Shown here one piece after another: positions 3,662-30,502 of a DNA stretch of 64,000 nt. The notes below the pieces were generated by a model. That model did no database searches. It saw only the letters and a list, made by a program, of their open reading frames with translations, and was not told where the DNA came from. Numbering within the stretch: position 1 is the stretch's first letter; each line of letters opens with the position of its first letter. Both the position numbers and the translations under genes were made by a program. Source of the DNA: an uncultured Candidatus Saccharibacteria bacterium (GTDB lineage: Bacteria; Patescibacteriota; Doudnabacteria; UBA920); assembly GCA_964521955.1 (NCBI GenBank), contig CAZFTX010000002.1:28785-92784 (forward strand), in the 5' to 3' direction.

Positions 3662-3710
3662 AGTAATCCCCAAGCCAAACTGCGCAGTATTTAACTCTCT
3701 ATAATAAAAG

Positions 3711-3777
3711 TGGGCAAGCATCCTTCAGGCTCAGGTCTTAACGACCCAAACCAAAATTCAGCTTGCCCACCCAGAGC
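3711..3777 (-). terminator. Hairpin GTGGGCAAGC...GCTTGCCCAC followed on the minus strand by TTTTATTAT. Putative terminator of the dinB / islet-1 transcription unit.
   Basis: Perfect 10-bp inverted repeat at 3711-3720 / 3761-3770. T-run on the minus strand. Confidence 0.45.
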
Positions 3778-3787
3778 CAGTTTGCGA

Positions 3788-4330
3788 CTAGAGCGCTAGT
3801 GACGTCTCAGCATTGACCGGGAAAAGCAGAGTATGCCCGATAGTCGCAAACCCGATCTCCCGGTTCATGACTCCACCTAGGACACTGAGAATATTCAAGT
3901 CGGTAGACCTTACCATAATTGTTAGTCCATCGACGTGGCCATTGTGCCCATCAGGTACATTTCCCAAACTCGACCAGACGCCTTCAATGAACACCCCCTC
4001 CAAAGGTGTCTCCTCCTCCACATCCTGACGACCTTCATTAATCCTTCGCACAAGCGCCATCAGATCAATCAGGATCGCGTTCATACCTCTACGTCTTACC
4101 TGCGCAGTATGTGGTAGCAAGAGCATCAACGACCGGTAAGACATGCTGGGAGACACAACTCTGATGTTGGGAACAAGAACACCCTCTGTAACAAGATCGG
4201 CAATTAGCCGTCGAGCCTTATCCGGAGAAACACCTACTGCTAAAACGATGTCATCGACTGAGGCTTGAGGGTTTCTCATGAAGGCCATCTGAACTTTCTG
4301 GCTGACTTCCTCCTTTTTTCCAGGCTTCAT
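3788..4330 (-). CDS. Hypothetical protein (180 aa) in GC-rich islet 1, with a possible HTH-like segment
   Basis: ORF with clearly higher GC than flanks. Start overlaps the upstream ORF stop (ATGA coupling). Candidate HTH segment DDIVLAVGVSPDKARRLIADLV. No family recognised. Confidence 0.4.
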   Translation of the reverse strand: MKPGKKEEVSQKVQMAFMRNPQASVDDIVLAVGVSPDKARRLIADLVTEGVLVPNIRVVSPSMSYRSLMLLLPHTAQVRRRGMNAILIDLMALVRRINEGRQDVEEETPLEGVFIEGVWSSLGNVPDGHNGHVDGLTIMVRSTDLNILSVLGGVMNREIGFATIGHTLLFPVNAETSLAL

Positions 4331-4851
4331 GACTGACGTCCTGTCTGACCGACTGCAACAAGTTGCCGAGCCGGAGGTAACAATAAAGTCTGCGATCCTA
4401 CTCCGGAGATTTGCGGCAACGATTCCACCGTAACCTCCAAAGCAATGCCCTGACGGTCAACCACAAGACATGCCCTCACCAGGCTTACAACCGCGGGCAA
4501 AATTTCGCTGGTAACTCCCCCCGGAAGCAAACCATTGATCTGATCAAGACTGTCCAGTGCTTCTAAGACAAGCTTGGTCTTCCGATTGGTCACCACCAAC
4601 ACAACTACCCAGCCCTCACCCACCAAACCATTTTTCTCTGGAAACGGCACTTTCATACCGACGATGGGCTTAAAACTGAATGTAGAACCTAAGTCCCACT
4701 TGCCTGTGCTGGCTTGTACTGCGAAGAACCAGGTTCTTTTACTGCTTCTTACCGGTCCAACTTCTTTCAGCACCTTAACTCTCTTTCTCCGCTTCTCACA
4801 ATCAAACTGACTTGCGGAAGGGAAGACAGTTATAAAAAAAATTACAACCAT
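4327..4851 (-). CDS. Hypothetical protein (174 aa, possibly shorter from M at ~4657) in GC-rich islet 1
   Basis: GGAAGGA about 5 nt before the ATG. Candidate promoter TTGACC-N18-TAAAGT upstream on the minus strand. The C-terminal half vaguely resembles a Roadblock/LC7-type fold (very tentative). Confidence 0.35.
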   Translation of the reverse strand: MVVIFFITVFPSASQFDCEKRRKRVKVLKEVGPVRSSKRTWFFAVQASTGKWDLGSTFSFKPIVGMKVPFPEKNGLVGEGWVVVLVVTNRKTKLVLEALDSLDQINGLLPGGVTSEILPAVVSLVRACLVVDRQGIALEVTVESLPQISGVGSQTLLLPPARQLVAVGQTGRQS

Positions 4852-4962
4852 TTTTCCTTCCGCAAATTTACCAAAATCCCCCTTAAAATTGACTCTATAC
4901 TTTACCTCAAAACCTCTATCTGGGTCAAGCCAAAATCGCCCTTCAACCCTGTACCCTAAAAG

Positions 4963-6345
4963 TTATATTTCCTTCACCCTGCCAAAACCCACACTATCCC
5001 TAAAAACTTTACCTGACTTTAAAACCGGAGCGCGTAAGATTGTAAACTCCCCGTATTTGTTGTTAATTTGGTCTAAAGCTTCACAAAGCTTTTTATTCTC
5101 CTCTCTGTGTCCAAACAAACTTAACTGCTGGCTGTAAGGCCGCAAATTAGCCACTGTAACACCAATAAGCTTAAACCCCCACTCCCCTTTAGGTTGCACT
5201 TGTTTAAAAATTGTTTTTGCTTGCAAAAAAATTTCCCGGCCTTCGGAAATAAAGTCTCCCAACTTTAAACTATTACCAAAACTTCGGTAGTTTTTGTCAT
5301 AACTAAAAAAATGCAAAACGTTGCCCTCTAAACCCTTTCTTCTCAACCTCCTCCCGACCATTTCACAAAGTTTATAAAGCACGGGAATAAAAAATTCCGG
5401 CTTTCTAAACTCTTTAGGCAAAGTGTACATGTGACCAATGGATTTTAACTCTTGATCCTGTTTTACATGTGCCTTCCAGCTAGAGCTTAACTGGCCTAAA
5501 TTGTACAAATGGTGTCCTTGCACGGGTCCAAATCGCCTGACCAAATGGCTCTTGGGATAATTTTTTAAATCCTCTAAGGTTTTAATACCTAAAGCGTATA
5601 AGTTTTTCTCCTGCCTATGTCCTATACCGGGTACGTCTGTAAGCTTAAGCTGTTTATATAAATCATTAGTAGTAAAACTTAAAGCTCCCAAATTTTCCAT
5701 TTTGATTTTTTCATTTTCATTTTCAGTAACGACTACTATTCCGTCCGGTTTTTTTAAGTCTGAACCAATTTTCGCCAAGGTTTTGTTTGAAGCTATGCCC
5801 ACAGAACAAGTTAAAACCTCCCCCATTTCTTTCTTCATTTGCAACTTAATGACTTTGGTAATTTTTACTGCTTCAGTAAATGGATCTACATAATTTTCTG
5901 ATTTATTGATTAACTGATTTAATGATTTTCGCTCATCAATTGAAGAATTGTTATTTAAAATTTGATATTTGTTTGATATTTGGTACTTGTTATTTGGCAT
6001 CCTGATATTACAAACTTTTGTAATATCCAAAAACACTTCGTCTATACTGTAAACCTCTACCAAAGCAGTAAATTCCGAAACCACCTTTACCATAGCTCTA
6101 TGGTAAAACCTATACCTTTCGGCCTGGGTATGGACTAAAACAATCTTCGGGCAAAGTTTTTTTGCTTCCCAAACCGGAGTTCCGGTTTTAATACCCAACT
6201 TTTTTGCTTCACGACTGGGGGAAATAATAATTCCACCCAAGTGTTCGCAGACCCCAACCGGTTTACCTCTAAGTTCGGGGTTGTCTGCTTGGGCAACCGA
6301 AGCAAAAAAACTATTCATATCTAAATGCAAAATGATTTGTTGCAT
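4963..6345 (-). CDS. dinB: DNA polymerase IV (Y-family translesion polymerase)
   Basis: 460 aa. N-terminal MQQIILHLDMNSFFASV and overall Y-family pattern. Contains a low-complexity NKYQISNKYQILNNN insert encoded by the direct DNA repeat tttgatatttg. Confidence 0.85.
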   Translation of the reverse strand: MQQIILHLDMNSFFASVAQADNPELRGKPVGVCEHLGGIIISPSREAKKLGIKTGTPVWEAKKLCPKIVLVHTQAERYRFYHRAMVKVVSEFTALVEVYSIDEVFLDITKVCNIRMPNNKYQISNKYQILNNNSSIDERKSLNQLINKSENYVDPFTEAVKITKVIKLQMKKEMGEVLTCSVGIASNKTLAKIGSDLKKPDGIVVVTENENEKIKMENLGALSFTTNDLYKQLKLTDVPGIGHRQEKNLYALGIKTLEDLKNYPKSHLVRRFGPVQGHHLYNLGQLSSSWKAHVKQDQELKSIGHMYTLPKEFRKPEFFIPVLYKLCEMVGRRLRRKGLEGNVLHFFSYDKNYRSFGNSLKLGDFISEGREIFLQAKTIFKQVQPKGEWGFKLIGVTVANLRPYSQQLSLFGHREENKKLCEALDQINNKYGEFTILRAPVLKSGKVFRDSVGFGRVKEI

Positions 6346-6645: not shown

Positions 6646-7026
6646 TTAGTGATGATGTGCTGCGTGTTCCTTGCGAATTTGAATATGACGTTTATTGTGG
6701 AAGAAAAACACAGCAAACATCATGCACATGTGCCCTACCCAAAAAGCTCCCTGAGAAAACATTCCCATGCCTAAATATCCGGAAACTAAAATAAAGTCTA
6801 AAAATAAAAAAGCTAAAAACCAAAACACCGCAATTGCCCCGGCTTCTAAAAAGTTTAAGACCCCTAAGCGTCTAACCAAAAAAGTGGTAACAATTAAAAT
6901 CGCCCCCCAATACAAATATTGGGAGAGCTCACCCGAAAAAAAATTACCTTGAAAATAAACTACCTTGAGTAGAGTTAAAAACAGCCACTCGAAAAATGAA
7001 ATAAATAATACTTTTTTAAAAGTCAT
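6646..7026 (-). CDS. Hypothetical membrane protein
   Basis: 126 aa, three or four transmembrane segments. Confidence 0.35.
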   Translation of the reverse strand: MTFKKVLFISFFEWLFLTLLKVVYFQGNFFSGELSQYLYWGAILIVTTFLVRRLGVLNFLEAGAIAVFWFLAFLFLDFILVSGYLGMGMFSQGAFWVGHMCMMFAVFFFHNKRHIQIRKEHAAHHH

Positions 7027-27413: not shown

Positions 27414-27515
27414 AGTGAATAATTTTATTGTTTGGAAATTGCTCATTTTGTGGTCAATTTTTTCTCAGTAACCAAGTAAGATCCAAGGAAACTGAGAAAC
27501 GGTAGGAGGTTTTTT

Positions 27516-27947
27516 ATGATTAAGAGGTTCAAGCTTGAACCGGGAATGTTCGGTGACGAACGGCAGTCGATCAAGGCCCTGGGGAGCGGCGGTAGCTGGG
27601 ACTTACGTTTTGGCCAAAACCGTGCGGACTGTTTTGTCCGCAACGCAAACTGGTACAACGGCCGCGGCGAAAAAATTGGACGAGGCGACTTGTCCTTACG
27701 CGATTTGTACGGGATTTCATGTTCAATCTTGGACGATGAAATCTTCATCATCGTTCCAGGACACGAACTGCCGCGAAGCGACAAAGAAGTCGCCGGCAAA
27801 GCCGAGTACGCCGTCATGTTCGGGGGAAAGTACTTCCTCGTGAACAGCAATGGTCAACGTGGTCAACACCGGGTGCGAGCAATGGACTTTGAGATCATCC
27901 CTCACACCAGCCTGCTCGGCAAAATGCAGCTGCCGGCCACCGCCTAA
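27516..27947 (+). CDS. Islet-2 protein A, hypothetical 143 aa (no recognised family)
   Basis: AGGAGG at 27504-27509 with a 6-nt spacer to the ATG. High GC. The overlapping antisense ORFs 27443..27850(-) and 27535..27843(+) lack signals. Confidence 0.5.
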   Translation: MIKRFKLEPGMFGDERQSIKALGSGGSWDLRFGQNRADCFVRNANWYNGRGEKIGRGDLSLRDLYGISCSILDDEIFIIVPGHELPRSDKEVAGKAEYAVMFGGKYFLVNSNGQRGQHRVRAMDFEIIPHTSLLGKMQLPATA

Positions 27948-27952
27948 CCTAT

Positions 27953-28323
27953 CCCAAGAGGTCACTTGGGAAAGCACGGGGAACTGCCACGTTCCCCTAC
28001 CCTTCTAAGTTCACTATTTCGATAATGAATTTAAAAGGGGGGCTAGCTCACAATGCTAAAAGCACTGAGCATAAACTAGACTCTCTTCGGTGCACAGCCG
28101 GGAGGGGGCGCCGCAAAAGGCGTTTAACTTATCTGTGCAAGACCCTTGTTTTAGCGCCACAAGGCGCTCAATAGCAATAACCCTCATAGCACGGAGGAAC
28201 GTACCATGTAAGTCACCCGGGCGTAGTCAAGCAGTATCCGACTACGCCCACCCTTCTAAGTTTGTCACTTGATGATAAGTTTAAAAGGGTAAAACCCTAT
28301 ATCTCAACGTTCAGGAGGAAACA
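27953..28323 (+). ncRNA. Hairpin-rich intergenic region with two hairpin plus ~40-nt direct-repeat modules (CCCTTCTAAGTT...TTTAAAAGGG) flanking a ~200-nt core with at least 5 hairpins. Candidate structured RNA or regulatory array.
   Basis: Hairpins at 27978-27997 and 28219-28249, each followed by a module (27999-28040; 28250-28290). Further hairpins include AGCGCC-acaa-GGCGCT and GCTCA...TGAGC. Confidence 0.35.
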
Positions 28324-28755
28324 ATGCCACAGGCATTCAAAGATTTTTACTGGGATTTGGCTAAGACGCTCTTAACCGGGCTCGGTTGGTCAGTTCTGGG
28401 ACTGCTCATTGGTCTCAATGAGACCTTTGACACCAGCAAGGTCCACGCTGACAACTTCTGGGCTGCTGCCATGTTCTACGGTTTATGGACGGGGTACAAA
28501 CTCGTCTACGGCACCGAGGGAAGACTACGCCTCATCAAATCAATGCTACTTATCCTGCCAATCATGGGGCTTTCAGCACTCTTTGTCCCGCGCTGGCTGG
28601 GCAACTCGCACATCCCTTTGGGGTGGTTTAGTTGGTTCATGACCTACGGGTTGTGGACTGCGGGCTTAGGTTGTGGAGCAGTCTTTGCCACAACTTTGAG
28701 CCTGACTGTAGCGGGGGTAAACCACCTTAGGCAGTGGTTTTCAGCGGAGAACTGA
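28324..28755 (+). CDS. Islet-2 protein B, hypothetical 4-transmembrane membrane protein (143 aa)
   Basis: AGGAGG at 28313-28318 with a 5-nt spacer. Four hydrophobic helices, Trp/Gly-rich. Confidence 0.5.
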   Translation: MPQAFKDFYWDLAKTLLTGLGWSVLGLLIGLNETFDTSKVHADNFWAAAMFYGLWTGYKLVYGTEGRLRLIKSMLLILPIMGLSALFVPRWLGNSHIPLGWFSWFMTYGLWTAGLGCGAVFATTLSLTVAGVNHLRQWFSAEN

Positions 28756-28769
28756 GACCTTCCGCCCTA

Positions 28770-28820
28770 CCCGGGAGTCGCGCAATGCGCGCGACTCCCG
28801 GGTATTTCTTTTTTATTTTA
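28770..28820 (+). terminator. Rho-independent terminator (14-bp perfect stem CCCGGGAGTCGCGC / GCGCGACTCCCGGG plus T-run)
   Basis: Read directly. Followed by the 18-bp perfect palindrome TTGTCGCAATTGCGACAA at 28849-28866. Confidence 0.75.
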
Positions 28821-28891
28821 AATTCTGACAAACAACATATCTGAACTTTTGTCGCAATTGCGACAAAATATTAGATATGAAAATACAAGTA

Positions 28892-30502
28892 TTATTCAAC
28901 CAATTCACCACCAAAAATTTGCAAAGCCCCGGCTAAAGCTTCTGTAGGAGAAGTGGCTTGGGAAGTTTCTTCTATCTTTTCAACACGAATAAAAACCCCC
29001 AATTTTACACCAGAAACTTGCTCTAAAACCTGATGAATCATTTGCTTGTTTTTCTGATTTTCCAAGTTTTGTTTATGAAAAGCAAACTTTGACCCTAAAA
29101 AAATTTTTCCATCATTTATTTCCAAAAGCTGACAACTTCTGACCATGTTAGCTAAAGGACTATTTAACTTTTTTAATTCAGAAATAAACTTTGGCCAAAA
29201 ACTTTCCACCTCTTCCCTAGAAATAACAACATTCTGTCCTGACTGAATCACTTCTTCCACCGCAACAACCTTAGGAATTTCCTCAACCAAAGCTTCCTGA
29301 GAAACACTCTTAATGTTTGACTGTGTAATGTTCTCATTTCTGTTATTGTTATTAGTTATAACTGATCCCCCGTTCCCCCCGCCCGCTCTTTTAAGTGCGG
29401 CTTCAACTGAAGCTAAAAGCATGGGTAATTCGGGATTTGGAGCGTCATAAAGTTCTTTATATGCCCTTAAAAAAAGCCTAATAATAAACATTAATTCTCC
29501 TTGGCTGAACTTGTCTGCAAACTCTAAAGCTTTCTGTCCATGCTCCCCTTCTAAGGAAGTTGCGTTTAAAGTAAGTTTAACGTTTAAAATTTTTCTTAAA
29601 TATTCCAAAAAATCCCGAGAGAAAACTAAAAAATCTTGACCTTTTTCTACCAACTCTTCGTAAAATCCGGGTAAATTTTTTGCTTGTCCGGTTTCAATTA
29701 ATTCCAATAAATTTTCACTTACTTTGATATCTACAAAACCTAGAAGTTGACGGCATTCTTCCAAAGAAGGATTAGCTCCCAAAGTTAAAATCTTGTCTAA
29801 CAAAGAAAGGGCGTCCCTAACACTGCCTTGAGCATTTTCTGCAACCAAAGAAATCGCAGCTAAATCTAAAGCTAAACCTTCTTTTTGCACAACGCTAGTT
29901 AAGTGTTCTTCTAAGTCTTTTTTGCTTAAAGCTTTAAAATCAAAACGTTGAGTACGGGAAACAATTGTAGCCGGGACTTTACTTATTTCAGTAGTCGCTA
30001 AAATAAAAATTGCATGCTTAGGCGGCTCTTCTAAAGTTTTAAGTAGGGCATTAAAAGCCCCTTTAGAAAGCATATGAACTTCGTCTATAATGAAAACTTT
30101 ATATTTCCCGGAGCTGGGAGCAAAACGAATATGTTCAATTAACTCCCGAATGTTGTCTACGCCGGTGTTAGAAGCTGCGTCTATTTCTAAAAGATCTAAA
30201 AACCTACCTTCAGTAATTTGTTTACAACTCTCACATACACCGCAAGCGTCACCCTCCTCCGTTCTTTGAAAACAATTCACTGCTTTGGCCAGAATTCTAG
30301 CCACCGAAGTCTTACCCACTCCCCGGCTCCCTGTAAACAAATAGGCATGAGCGGGCTCGCCTAAAGCGGCCTGGTTTTTTAAGGCTTGAACAATGTATTT
30401 TTGGTTTAAAACCTCAGCAAATGTTTGGGGTCTGTGTTTCCTGTATAGTACGGCCATAATCGTTTCAGAACTTAAGCACCTCCTATTTTTCAAACGAGCC
30501 AA
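28892..30502 (-). CDS. dnaX: DNA polymerase III subunit gamma/tau
   Basis: YRKHRPQTF, GSRGVGKTS Walker A, DEVHML. Likely true start at MAVLY (30457). Confidence 0.85.
   Translation of the reverse strand: MARLKNRRCLSSETIMAVLYRKHRPQTFAEVLNQKYIVQALKNQAALGEPAHAYLFTGSRGVGKTSVARILAKAVNCFQRTEEGDACGVCESCKQITEGRFLDLLEIDAASNTGVDNIRELIEHIRFAPSSGKYKVFIIDEVHMLSKGAFNALLKTLEEPPKHAIFILATTEISKVPATIVSRTQRFDFKALSKKDLEEHLTSVVQKEGLALDLAAISLVAENAQGSVRDALSLLDKILTLGANPSLEECRQLLGFVDIKVSENLLELIETGQAKNLPGFYEELVEKGQDFLVFSRDFLEYLRKILNVKLTLNATSLEGEHGQKALEFADKFSQGELMFIIRLFLRAYKELYDAPNPELPMLLASVEAALKRAGGGNGGSVITNNNNRNENITQSNIKSVSQEALVEEIPKVVAVEEVIQSGQNVVISREEVESFWPKFISELKKLNSPLANMVRSCQLLEINDGKIFLGSKFAFHKQNLENQKNKQMIHQVLEQVSGVKLGVFIRVEKIEETSQATSPTEALAGALQIFGGELVE

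What the first reader, a model, noticed from the sequence alone, without database searches (positions are those of the whole stretch)
3662..4962. GC-rich islet 1: two-gene cassette embedded immediately downstream of dinB
ORFs 4327..4851 and 3788..4330 overlap by ATGA (translational coupling) and have higher GC. A candidate promoter TTGACC-N18-TAAAGT plus GGAAGGA SD lies upstream; a hairpin terminator is at 3711-3777. They sit on the same strand directly after the translesion polymerase gene, so read-through from dinB is possible. This is analogous in position only to the E. coli dinB-yafNOP arrangement, where a TA pair follows dinB. Protein identities are unrecognised; an HTH-like segment in one and a Roadblock/LC7-like feel in the other are very tentative.
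Basis: partly seen in the sequence, partly recalled or inferred. Interest (0 to 1): 0.6.

Follow-up and report, generated by a model that had tools for sequence, protein, structure and literature searches.

The report
Rare Lrp-like regulator cassette beside dinB
The GC-rich patch after the dinB gene is a real, self-contained two-gene unit encoding a very divergent Lrp/AsnC-type DNA-binding regulator and an unknown partner protein behind a conserved folded RNA leader; it is not a toxin-antitoxin pair, and its position next to dinB looks accidental.

Summary
Two minus-strand ORFs (4327..4851 and 3788..4330) overlap by ATGA. They sit in a ~1.2 kb block of ~50% GC in a 38% GC genome, directly after a Y-family polymerase gene, with a promoter-like site upstream and a strong hairpin plus U-run downstream.

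Both are real genes. Their only homologues among billions of proteins lie in one Candidatus Doudnabacteria lineage. There the same cassette (ORF1-like gene plus two ORF2-like paralogues) is also GC-rich, is under purifying selection (dN/dS 0.19-0.33), and sits between Nramp and PaaX-like genes, not near dinB.

ORF2 is a divergent Lrp/AsnC-type winged-HTH regulator (family profile vs solved Lrp/AsnC structures, E 2.6e-6). ORF1 matches nothing known.

New here: the ~120 nt 5' leader is conserved in sequence blocks between the two lineages although synonymous sites are saturated. It forms a long hairpin whose base is invariant. By homology ORF1 probably starts at GTG 4773, not ATG 4851, which lies inside that hairpin.

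I found no support for a TA, YafNO or Roadblock reading. Best reading: a horizontally acquired, probably autoregulated regulator module. Interest is moderate to low.

The parts
4899..4928 (-). Promoter-like site TTGACC-N18-TAAAGT of the cassette
   Evidence: Consensus scan. It aligns with TTGACA-N17-TACCAT at the same position upstream of the Doudnabacteria cassettes. Similarity between the three lineages' upstream regions begins at this -35 box.
4774..4898 (-). Conserved non-coding 5' leader. Invariant blocks: AAGGGGGA (4877-4884), TTTG[C/T]GGAAGGAAAA, TTCCCTTCCGCAA, and a purine box GAGAAG.G.AGAAAGAG (4779-4797)
   Evidence: DNA alignment with L083/L084. Aligned leader positions are 59-61% identical, with 8-16 nt identical blocks. 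Coding DNA is 39-50% identical and third codon positions 25-34%. The equivalent stretch in L083/L084 contains in-frame stops. No Rfam family matches.
4811..4866 (-). Leader hairpin. An 11-bp invariant base (GCGGAAGG.../...CCUUCCGC) carries a distal stem of variable length; it encloses the ATG at 4851
   Evidence: MFE folds give the same closing stem in all three versions: 56 nt here, 105-108 nt in Doudnabacteria. 97% of cells pair, against 37-57% with slid partners, and 3 pairs changed on both sides. L083 vs L084: 37 pairs, 0 broken, 8 one-sided changes through G-U, 1 compensatory. Loop columns differ at 44% and stem columns at 13.5%.
4327..4851 (-). ORF1: lineage-restricted protein of unknown fold. 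The probable true start is GTG 4773 (148 aa); the longest ORF starts at ATG 4851 (174 aa)
   Evidence: Only self-hit in the 5.8-billion-protein search. Homologous to gene A of the Doudnabacteria cassette (28-33% identity, pairwise E 7e-11). Gene A has dN/dS 0.19. No Pfam, NCBIfam, PADLOC or PDB match. AF2 model pLDDT 33.
3788..4330 (-). ORF2: divergent Lrp/AsnC-type winged-HTH regulator (180 aa), with a start overlapping the ORF1 stop (ATGA)
   Evidence: Exhaustive HMMER search found one real homologue cluster (P0003, 39% identity, E 2e-22). Family members hit HTH_24 at 2.5e-8 and HTH_AsnC-type at 3.7e-6. The family profile hits solved Lrp/AsnC proteins at E 2.6e-6 across HTH, linker and first strand. 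The Foldseek top 29 PDB hits are all of the Lrp/AsnC fold, from a low-confidence model.
3699..3772 (-). Intrinsic-terminator-like hairpin (stem 3708-3772) followed by UUUUAUUAU
   Evidence: Fold -46.7 kcal/mol, z -5.6, 0 of 200 shuffles as stable. A GGGCAAG/CTTGCCC stem also follows the last gene of the Doudnabacteria cassettes.
4963..6345 (-). Upstream neighbour only, not part of the module: Y-family DNA polymerase (dinB-like)
   Evidence: Pfam IMS 1e-40, IMS_C, IMS_HHH_1. Its closest relatives in a 185,579-species genome set (38% identity and below) have unrelated downstream genes.

Best explanation
Window ~3699-4935 (minus strand) is a self-contained, horizontally acquired transcription unit. 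It consists of its own promoter, a ~120-nt structured 5' leader, two translationally coupled genes and an intrinsic terminator. The second gene encodes a very divergent Lrp/AsnC-type (feast/famine) regulator, with an N-terminal winged HTH and a C-terminal alpha/beta domain. The first gene encodes a protein known only from this cassette, most likely the regulator's partner or the function it controls.

Inferred mechanism: the Lrp-like protein oligomerises, binds DNA around its own promoter and leader, and sets expression of the operon in response to a small-molecule or partner signal, as Lrp/AsnC proteins usually do. The conserved leader hairpin adds control on the mRNA, through stability, processing or protein binding, and it sequesters an SD-like GGAAGGA and an AUG.

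Shown: gene reality, homology, HTH type, conservation and pairing of the leader, and lack of conserved linkage to dinB. Inferred: autoregulation, ligand response, the role of ORF1, and the role of the hairpin.
For: Real genes: coding-type codon-position composition; homologous cassette in Doudnabacteria with dN/dS 0.19-0.33 between two strains.

Lrp/AsnC type: HTH_24 at 2.5e-8 and HTH_AsnC-type at 3.7e-6 in family members. The profile hits PDB Lrp/AsnC proteins at 2.6e-6 to 1e-5 over profile positions 5-83, which is HTH plus linker plus first beta strand. hhalign to E. coli Lrp aligns the HTH at E 0.0019 but with probability only 15%. The AF2 secondary structure is three helices then beta-alpha-beta-beta-alpha. 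The Foldseek top 29 PDB hits are all of the Lrp/AsnC fold. One source names the paralogue an Lrp family regulator.

Module autonomy: promoter, leader, genes and 3' hairpin are conserved together in a different genomic neighbourhood. L083 and L084 have different upstream neighbours, and their similarity starts at the -35 box.

Leader: identical blocks persist although third codon positions are only 25-34% identical. Pairing is kept.

Foreign composition in both hosts.
Against: The C-terminal domain has no sequence match to the Lrp/AsnC RAM domain PF01037. The structural evidence rests on a model with pLDDT 50 and TM-scores of 0.25-0.30.

ORF1 has no detectable relatives outside the cassette and no usable model, so its role is a guess.

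Only three distinct leader sequences exist. The shuffle control for covariation is therefore not significant (33-44 of 500 shuffles reach the observed values).

No integrase, transposase, flanking repeats or viral homologues mark how the unit moved.
Confidence: 0.62

Rival explanations
1. A mobile-element or phage-derived module, such as a repressor/anti-repressor pair or a small defence or addiction unit, left behind after integration. Regulation of a host process is not its function.
For: GC and GC3 are about 10-20 points above both host genomes. The distribution is extremely patchy: one genome plus one Doudnabacteria lineage. There is a synteny break at the cassette's 5' edge between L083 and L084. 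Both host genomes hold other GC-rich ORFan islets.
Against: No integrase or transposase is adjacent, and there are no convincing flanking repeats. There are no hits in IMG/VR, INPHARED phages, PHROGs (E > 0.01) or PADLOC. In Doudnabacteria the cassette has stayed at one locus across a divergence of dS ~0.5-0.9.
Confidence: 0.17
2. One reading: a toxin-antitoxin-like stress pair functionally attached to dinB and co-transcribed after DNA damage, like E. coli dinB-yafNOP.
For: Two small overlapping genes lie on the same strand 111 nt after dinB, with no terminator between them. One protein has an HTH, as many antitoxins do. E. coli does carry yafNOP in the dinB operon (PMC2814082, PMC3105422).
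Against: No match to YafN/Phd, YafO or any toxin, antitoxin or defence model. The HTH is of Lrp/AsnC type and carries a ~110-aa C-terminal domain. The homologous cassettes are not near dinB and have three genes. The unit has its own conserved promoter and leader. Unlike typical TA families, it has almost no relatives.
Confidence: 0.06
3. An enzyme complex built on the Lrp/AsnC fold rather than a transcription factor, as in sirohaem decarboxylase AhbA/B (NirDL/GH), with ORF1 as an accessory subunit.
For: Foldseek lists AhbA/B (4czd) among the top hits. The Doudnabacteria cassette has two Lrp-like paralogues side by side, like AhbA/AhbB.
Against: The window has only one Lrp-like gene. No sequence similarity to AhbA/B or NirD families was reported by Pfam or NCBIfam. 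No haem or other cofactor pathway genes lie nearby.
Confidence: 0.05
4. Not genes at all: a GC-rich structured non-coding RNA or other non-coding element in which two long ORFs are open by chance.
For: In AT-rich genomes GC-rich islets are often structured RNAs. The minus-strand RNA folds extensively, and both ORFs were orphans in the first searches.
Against: No Rfam match. Protein-level homologues at 28-39% identity persist while third positions are near random. dN/dS is 0.19-0.33. Codon-position composition is typical of coding sequence. A recognised HTH domain is present in family members.
Confidence: 0.02

Closest known systems
Lrp/AsnC (feast/famine regulatory protein) family, e.g. Pyrococcus PH1519 (FL11), PH0140, E. 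coli Lrp/AsnC
   Same: ORF2 and its relatives have the same N-terminal winged HTH (HTH_24 / HTH_AsnC-type). The linker and first beta strand are in register with solved family members. Size is similar (157-180 aa) and the predicted beta-alpha-beta-beta-alpha C-terminal half matches. Like many family members, the gene sits in a small operon with a conserved regulatory region upstream.
   Different: ORF2 itself is below Pfam thresholds (HTH_24 E 0.014). The C-terminal domain has no detectable sequence similarity to the RAM domain PF01037. The family has an invariant VDGLT motif of its own. It is always coupled to an ORFan partner gene and a structured leader. It is known from only two lineages.
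E. coli dinB-yafN-yafO-yafP operon (YafN/YafO type II toxin-antitoxin downstream of dinB)
   Same: Position only: small overlapping genes on the same strand directly after a Y-family polymerase gene, with no intervening terminator (PMC2814082, PMC3105422).
   Different: No homology to YafN, YafO or YafP. The cassette has its own promoter and leader. Linkage to dinB is absent in the only homologous loci.
Hetero-oligomeric Lrp-like pairs (AhbA/AhbB sirohaem decarboxylase; archaeal FL11/DM1-type FFRP partners)
   Same: The Doudnabacteria version encodes two adjacent, overlapping Lrp-like paralogues. AhbA/B appears among the structural hits.
   Different: The window version has one Lrp-like gene. 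ORF1 shows no profile similarity to the Lrp-like family (hhalign). No sequence match to AhbA/B families was found.
Cis-regulatory 5' leader hairpins of bacterial operons (protein-binding or SD-sequestering leaders, RNase III sites, 5' stabiliser stem-loops)
   Same: A long hairpin lies between promoter and start codon and is conserved with the operon. Stem substitutions keep pairing. It encloses an SD-like GGAAGGA plus AUG.
   Different: It matches no Rfam family. The stem base is invariant in sequence across very deep divergence, while the distal part varies from 56 to 108 nt. Neither ligand, protein partner nor mechanism is known.

Membership tests
Lrp/AsnC (FFRP) transcription regulators | N-terminal winged helix-turn-helix of the HTH_24 / HTH_AsnC type | tested here: met
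   ORF2 alone is weak (HTH_24 E 0.014, residues 18-52). Its family hits HTH_24 at 2.5e-8 (4 of 5 members) and HTH_AsnC-type at 3.7e-6. The family profile hits solved Lrp/AsnC proteins at E 2.6e-6 to 1e-5.
Lrp/AsnC (FFRP) transcription regulators | C-terminal RAM / AsnC_trans_reg domain (beta-alpha-beta-beta-alpha-beta) for oligomerisation and ligand binding | tested here: inconclusive
   No member hits PF01037 at E <= 1. PDB profile alignments reach only the first strand. The AF2 model (pLDDT 50) shows E66-73, H76-100, E114-126, E132-142 and H145-159. Foldseek aligns 150-180 columns to Lrp/AsnC structures with probability 0.9-0.99 but TM 0.25-0.30.
Lrp/AsnC (FFRP) transcription regulators | Specific DNA binding, oligomer formation, effector response | not testable with these tools
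   Needs EMSA or footprinting, SEC or structure determination, and ligand screens.
Type II toxin-antitoxin of the dinB operon (YafN/YafO) or any TA | Sequence membership of a toxin and an antitoxin family | tested here: not met
   No PhdYeFM, YafO, RelE, MazF, HipA or similar hit at E <= 1 in Pfam. PADLOC gives only SoFic at 0.045 on the HTH. NCBIfam gives none.
Type II toxin-antitoxin of the dinB operon (YafN/YafO) or any TA | Conserved association with dinB | tested here: not met
   All homologous cassettes (L083-L088) lie between Nramp or another gene and a PaaX-like gene. The nearest dinB relatives have other downstream genes.
Type II toxin-antitoxin of the dinB operon (YafN/YafO) or any TA | Two small adjacent, translationally coupled genes | tested here: met
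   ATGA overlap at 4327-4330. This feature is not specific to TA systems.
Roadblock/LC7 (PF03259) for ORF1 | Profile match to the Robl_LC7 domain | tested here: not met
   No such hit at E <= 1 for ORF1 or its two homologues. No PDB sequence hit.
Known RNA families (Rfam 15) for the 5' leader | Covariance-model match | tested here: not met
   No hit at gathering threshold in the window. Sub-threshold hits are only chance-level miRNA or snoRNA-type matches on the hairpin. Nothing falls on the Doudnabacteria leader.
Intrinsic (Rho-independent) terminator | Stable GC-rich hairpin directly followed by a U-run | tested here: met
   12-bp closing stem 3761-3772/3708-3719 with an inner hairpin, then UUUUAUUAU at 3699-3707; z -5.6. 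The loop is too long for the simple scan, so one search missed it.
AhbA/B-type Lrp-fold enzymes | Two distinct Lrp-like subunits encoded together; sequence membership of NirD/AhbA families | tested here: inconclusive
   There is one Lrp-like gene in the window and two in Doudnabacteria. No family-level sequence hit. The only support is a structural resemblance shared with all Lrp/AsnC proteins.

The most novel reading that the evidence does not exclude
The cassette is a previously undescribed mobile regulatory module of CPR/Patescibacteria. Its core is a new cis-acting RNA element: the invariant-base leader hairpin with flanking purine boxes. This element would be recognised by the ORFan protein ORF1 or by the Lrp-like protein, which would make ORF1 a new RNA- or DNA-binding fold. 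The sustained GC and GC3 excess in two hosts would then reflect selection on the transcript rather than recent transfer.
Probability: 0.2. Interest if true: 0.6.

Novelty: new variant of a known kind. Interest (0 to 1): 0.36.

Why it matters
Transcription regulation in the reduced genomes of CPR/Patescibacteria is poorly known. This unit adds an Lrp/AsnC-like regulator that standard domain searches miss: ORF2 itself is below every Pfam threshold. It always travels with an unknown partner protein and a conserved structured leader.

It also gives a clean example of a GC-rich ORFan islet that is real and under selection, and that is shared between two distant low-GC genomes at different loci. That bears on how such genomes acquire accessory genes.

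It corrects two annotation points: the ORF1 start codon, and the tempting but unsupported dinB-TA analogy. The practical consequence is modest, because only three sequence versions exist and no function has been demonstrated.

Tried and rejected
Known-RNA reading of the islet: Rfam at gathering and at E <= 10 found nothing relevant. Whole-islet folds on both strands were uninformative because no shuffles are run above 1000 nt.

Direct protein searches: the word-indexed searches of both ORFs found only themselves. Pfam, NCBIfam, PHROGs, PADLOC and PDB sequence searches of the single proteins gave only sub-threshold HTH hints.

HMMER artefacts: in the exhaustive HMMER search, two giant repeat proteins (P0004 and P0005, with 25 and 16 matched stretches) scored well. 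On inspection they are tandem-repeat artefacts, not homologues.

Orthologous dinB loci: the genome-collection scan found nothing closer than 38% identity. The best locus (L003) shares only the upstream small membrane gene, so no 'empty site' could be defined.

Mobile-element signs: there are no significant flanking direct or inverted repeats. There were no viral or phage hits with proteins, profiles or the leader pattern. The leader motif occurs once per contig.

Wider sampling: the metagenome scan with the family profile returned only the already known JGI contig.

ORF1: the single-sequence AF2 model was useless (pLDDT 33). Profiles of 2-3 sequences found nothing in PDB, Pfam or NCBIfam. It shows no profile similarity to the Lrp-like family.

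Other shared DNA: tblastx of the whole window against the Doudnabacteria contigs found no shared region other than ORF2.

Full report
**1. The observation**

The window is a low-GC genome (0.38 overall). Most genes lie on the minus strand. Its gene content and nearest relatives point to Patescibacteria/CPR. The best DinB match in a 185,579-species genome set is a Patescibacteria MAG at 38% identity.

Two minus-strand ORFs, 4327..4851 (174 aa) and 3788..4330 (180 aa), overlap by ATGA. They lie in a block of 0.50-0.52 GC flanked by 0.30-0.40 GC. Their GC3 is 0.49 and 0.52, against 0.29-0.39 in neighbouring genes.

The gene directly upstream (4963..6345) is a Y-family polymerase (Pfam IMS 1e-40 plus IMS_C and IMS_HHH_1). 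The promoter-like TTGACC-N18-TAAAGT at 4928-4899 exists. The downstream hairpin is a strong terminator-like structure, with stem 3708-3772 then UUUUAUUAU (z -5.6).

**2. Genes or a non-coding GC-rich element?**

GC-rich islets in AT-rich genomes are often structured RNAs, so I tested that first.

- Rfam found nothing in the islet at the gathering threshold or at E <= 10.
- Codon-position composition is of the coding type (G1 0.37, T1 0.12-0.18, T2 0.37).
- The word-indexed search of 5.8 billion proteins returned only the proteins themselves.
- An exhaustive HMMER scan of 1.84 billion cluster representatives with ORF2 found one real homologue, P0003 (157 aa, 39% identity over residues 18-174, E 2e-22).
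- The same scan returned two giant tandem-repeat proteins. I reject these as repeat artefacts.

**3. The homologous cassette**

P0003 lies on a metagenome contig (L083). Close relatives lie on four further contigs (L084-L087), one of which NCBI assigns to Candidatus Doudnabacteria. There the cassette has three overlapping genes:

- Gene A (166 aa) is homologous to ORF1 (28-33% identity, pairwise E 7e-11).
- Gene B (174 aa) is an ORF2 paralogue with a significant HTH_24 domain.
- Gene C (157/174 aa) is the closest ORF2 relative.

Between the two Doudnabacteria versions, dN/dS is 0.19 (A), 0.33 (B) and 0.20 (C). Flanking genes give 0.02-0.13. These are therefore expressed, selected proteins that evolve faster than the core genes around them.

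The cassette is again GC-rich: 0.51-0.53 GC and GC3 0.49-0.66, in contigs of 0.42-0.44 GC whose neighbours have GC3 of 0.36-0.49.

It lies between an Nramp transporter gene (or, in L083, a different gene) and a PaaX-like gene. No dinB is present. A profile search of the protein database, a metagenome scan and several viral scans found no other lineage.

**4. What the proteins are**

ORF2 alone gives only sub-threshold HTH hints (HTH_24 E 0.014, LrpA1 E 0.08). Its family is clearer:

- HTH_24 hits at 2.5e-8 in 4 of 5 members, and HTH_AsnC-type at 3.7e-6.
- A profile of the family hits solved Lrp/AsnC proteins (PH0140, PH1519/FL11, ST1022, AsnC and others) at E 2.6e-6 and weaker. The alignments run through the HTH, the linker proline and the first strand of the C-terminal domain.
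- The single-sequence AF2 model has low confidence (pLDDT 50), but its secondary structure is three helices followed by beta-alpha-beta-beta-alpha.
- The top 29 Foldseek hits of that model in the PDB are all of the Lrp/AsnC fold, with full-length alignments, probability 0.9-0.99 and TM only 0.25-0.30.
- hhalign against E. coli Lrp aligns the HTH only, weakly (E 0.0019, probability 15%).

I therefore file ORF2 as a divergent Lrp/AsnC-type regulator. The HTH criterion is met. The RAM-domain criterion is inconclusive.

ORF1 and its two homologues match nothing in Pfam, NCBIfam, PADLOC or the PDB. They show no profile similarity to the Lrp-like family, and the AF2 model is unusable (pLDDT 33). The Roadblock/LC7 impression is not supported.

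**5. A conserved structured leader (new)**

The DNA upstream of ORF1 aligns with the DNA upstream of gene A in Doudnabacteria. The shared elements, in order, are:

- a -35 box, TTGAC;
- a -10-like hexamer at the same distance (TAAAGT here, TACCAT there);
- AAGGGGGA;
- TTTG[C/T]GGAAGGAAAA;
- a variable insert;
- TTCCCTTCCGCAA;
- a purine box, GAGAAG.G.AGAAAGAG;
- the start codon.

Aligned leader positions are 59-61% identical, with identical blocks of 8-16 nt. The coding DNA is 39-50% identical and third codon positions only 25-34%, which is near saturation.

The two conserved arms close a hairpin of 56 nt in the window (4811-4866) and 105-108 nt in Doudnabacteria. On the three distinct sequences:

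- 97% of cells pair, against 37-57% when partners are slid.
- Three pairs changed on both sides.
- The shuffle control is not significant with so few sequences (33-44 of 500).

Between the two Doudnabacteria versions, 37 predicted pairs show no breaks, eight one-sided changes through G-U and one compensatory change. Loop columns differ at 44% and stem columns at 13.5%. From the pair-type table I count 18 G-U cells of 99. This means the sense strand, the mRNA, pairs better than the antisense strand would, which favours an RNA element over a DNA cruciform or operator. An operator role for the arms is not excluded.

No Rfam family matches. The motif occurs once per contig.

**6. Consequence for annotation**

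The ATG at 4851 and the 'GGAAGGA SD' lie inside the hairpin. In Doudnabacteria the equivalent stretch is non-coding, with in-frame stops. Gene A starts at the position that aligns with GTG 4773 in the window. ORF1 is therefore most likely 4327..4773 (148 aa).

The apparent N-terminal similarity in the protein alignment reflects the conserved leader nucleotides, not conserved coding sequence.

**7. How it most likely works**

Shown:

- an autonomous unit of promoter, structured leader, two coupled genes and terminator;
- a second gene encoding an Lrp/AsnC-type DNA-binding protein;
- conservation of the whole unit in a different neighbourhood.

Inferred from what is established for Lrp/AsnC proteins:

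- The regulator forms oligomers, binds near its own promoter and autoregulates the operon in response to a small effector.
- ORF1 is the co-regulated partner or output.
- The hairpin modulates mRNA stability, processing or translation, or is a protein-binding site.

The position after dinB appears incidental. Read-through from dinB is possible, since no terminator lies between the genes. However, the cassette has its own promoter region, and its relatives are not linked to dinB.

**8. Rivals**

- Remnant of a mobile element or phage: supported by composition, patchiness and the synteny break at the 5' edge. No mobility genes, repeats or viral homologues were found.
- TA-like unit tied to dinB: no family match and no conserved linkage. 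E. coli dinB-yafNOP is a real precedent only for position (PMC2814082, PMC3105422).
- AhbA/B-like enzyme on the Lrp fold: only a shared fold supports it.
- Non-coding element with chance ORFs: refuted for the ORF bodies.

**9. Novelty and score**

The regulator belongs to a known superfamily but is a new, very divergent and very rare branch. The partner protein is an ORFan family. The leader is a candidate new RNA motif supported by only three sequences.

I rate this a new variant of a known kind, with interest 0.36. It is a sound, corrected annotation with a modestly intriguing leader and composition puzzle. It is not a surprise for a specialist, and no function has been demonstrated.

Noticed in passing
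window 27450-28900: A second GC-rich islet (0.48-0.54 GC) lies between a 571-aa ORF and dnaX. It holds two 143-aa plus-strand ORFs (27516..27947 and 28324..28755, the latter membrane-like). Neither has a Pfam or Rfam match, and tblastx finds no similarity to islet 1 or to the Doudnabacteria contigs.
   Followed up: partly
L083 6706-7909; L084 7924-8559 and 9652-10092: The Doudnabacteria contigs carry further GC-rich ORFan genes (GC 0.51-0.53, GC3 0.55-0.65, no Pfam family) interleaved with normal-composition genes. GC-rich ORFan islets therefore recur in both genomes.
   Followed up: no
L083 ~700-745 vs L084 ~2125-2200: L083 and L084 are syntenic downstream of the cassette but have different upstream neighbours: an unrelated plus-strand gene with a terminator in L083, and divergent Nramp in L084. 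Their similarity begins right at the cassette's -35 box.
   Followed up: partly
L084 2272-2340; window 4851: In L084 the conserved GGAAGGAAAAATG inside the hairpin opens a 22-codon upstream ORF that ends within the hairpin. In the window the same ATG runs in frame into ORF1. L083 has GCG instead of ATG.
   Followed up: partly
window 3708-3772; L084 ~4010-4045; L083 ~2680-2715: The hairpin after the last gene uses the same stem core, GGGCAAG...CTTGCCC, in the window and in Doudnabacteria, where a second hairpin with a T-run follows it. A short AGTCG[C/T]AAA block just after the stop codon is also shared. This may be a second conserved RNA element or chance.
   Followed up: no
L083/L084 genes B and C: Synonymous divergence of the two Lrp-like genes (dS 0.23 and 0.40) is lower than that of gene A and of all flanking genes (0.47-1.7). 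This may point to constraint on synonymous sites or to recombination.
   Followed up: no
window ~5895-6006 (DinB residues ~113-150): The DinB-like protein carries a ~30-residue low-complexity Asn/Lys/Gln-rich insertion (NNKYQISNKYQILNNNSSIDERKSLNQLINKSENY). It is absent from the closest relative in L003 and coincides with a GC dip to 0.30.
   Followed up: no
window 6646..7026 (minus); L003 3182..3598: A small multi-pass membrane protein with a basic, His-rich C-terminal tail (...KEHAAHHH / ...KAHGAHH) lies just upstream of dinB, both here and in the nearest Patescibacteria relative. In that relative dnaX precedes it. It has no Pfam family.
   Followed up: no
L003 5012-6015: Downstream of dinB in the nearest relative lie three small ORFs (113, 84 and 124 aa), each with an N-terminal hydrophobic stretch; I did not test whether they are related to one another. 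They are followed by a large (704-aa) ORF that by eye resembles a UvrD/PcrA-type helicase (not searched). The region downstream of dinB is therefore variable in this group.
   Followed up: no
L083 638-735: A sub-threshold Rfam hit to csRNA (41.8 bits, gathering 57, E 0.0016) covers the terminator region of the gene upstream of the cassette. It is probably a chance match to a terminator hairpin.
   Followed up: no
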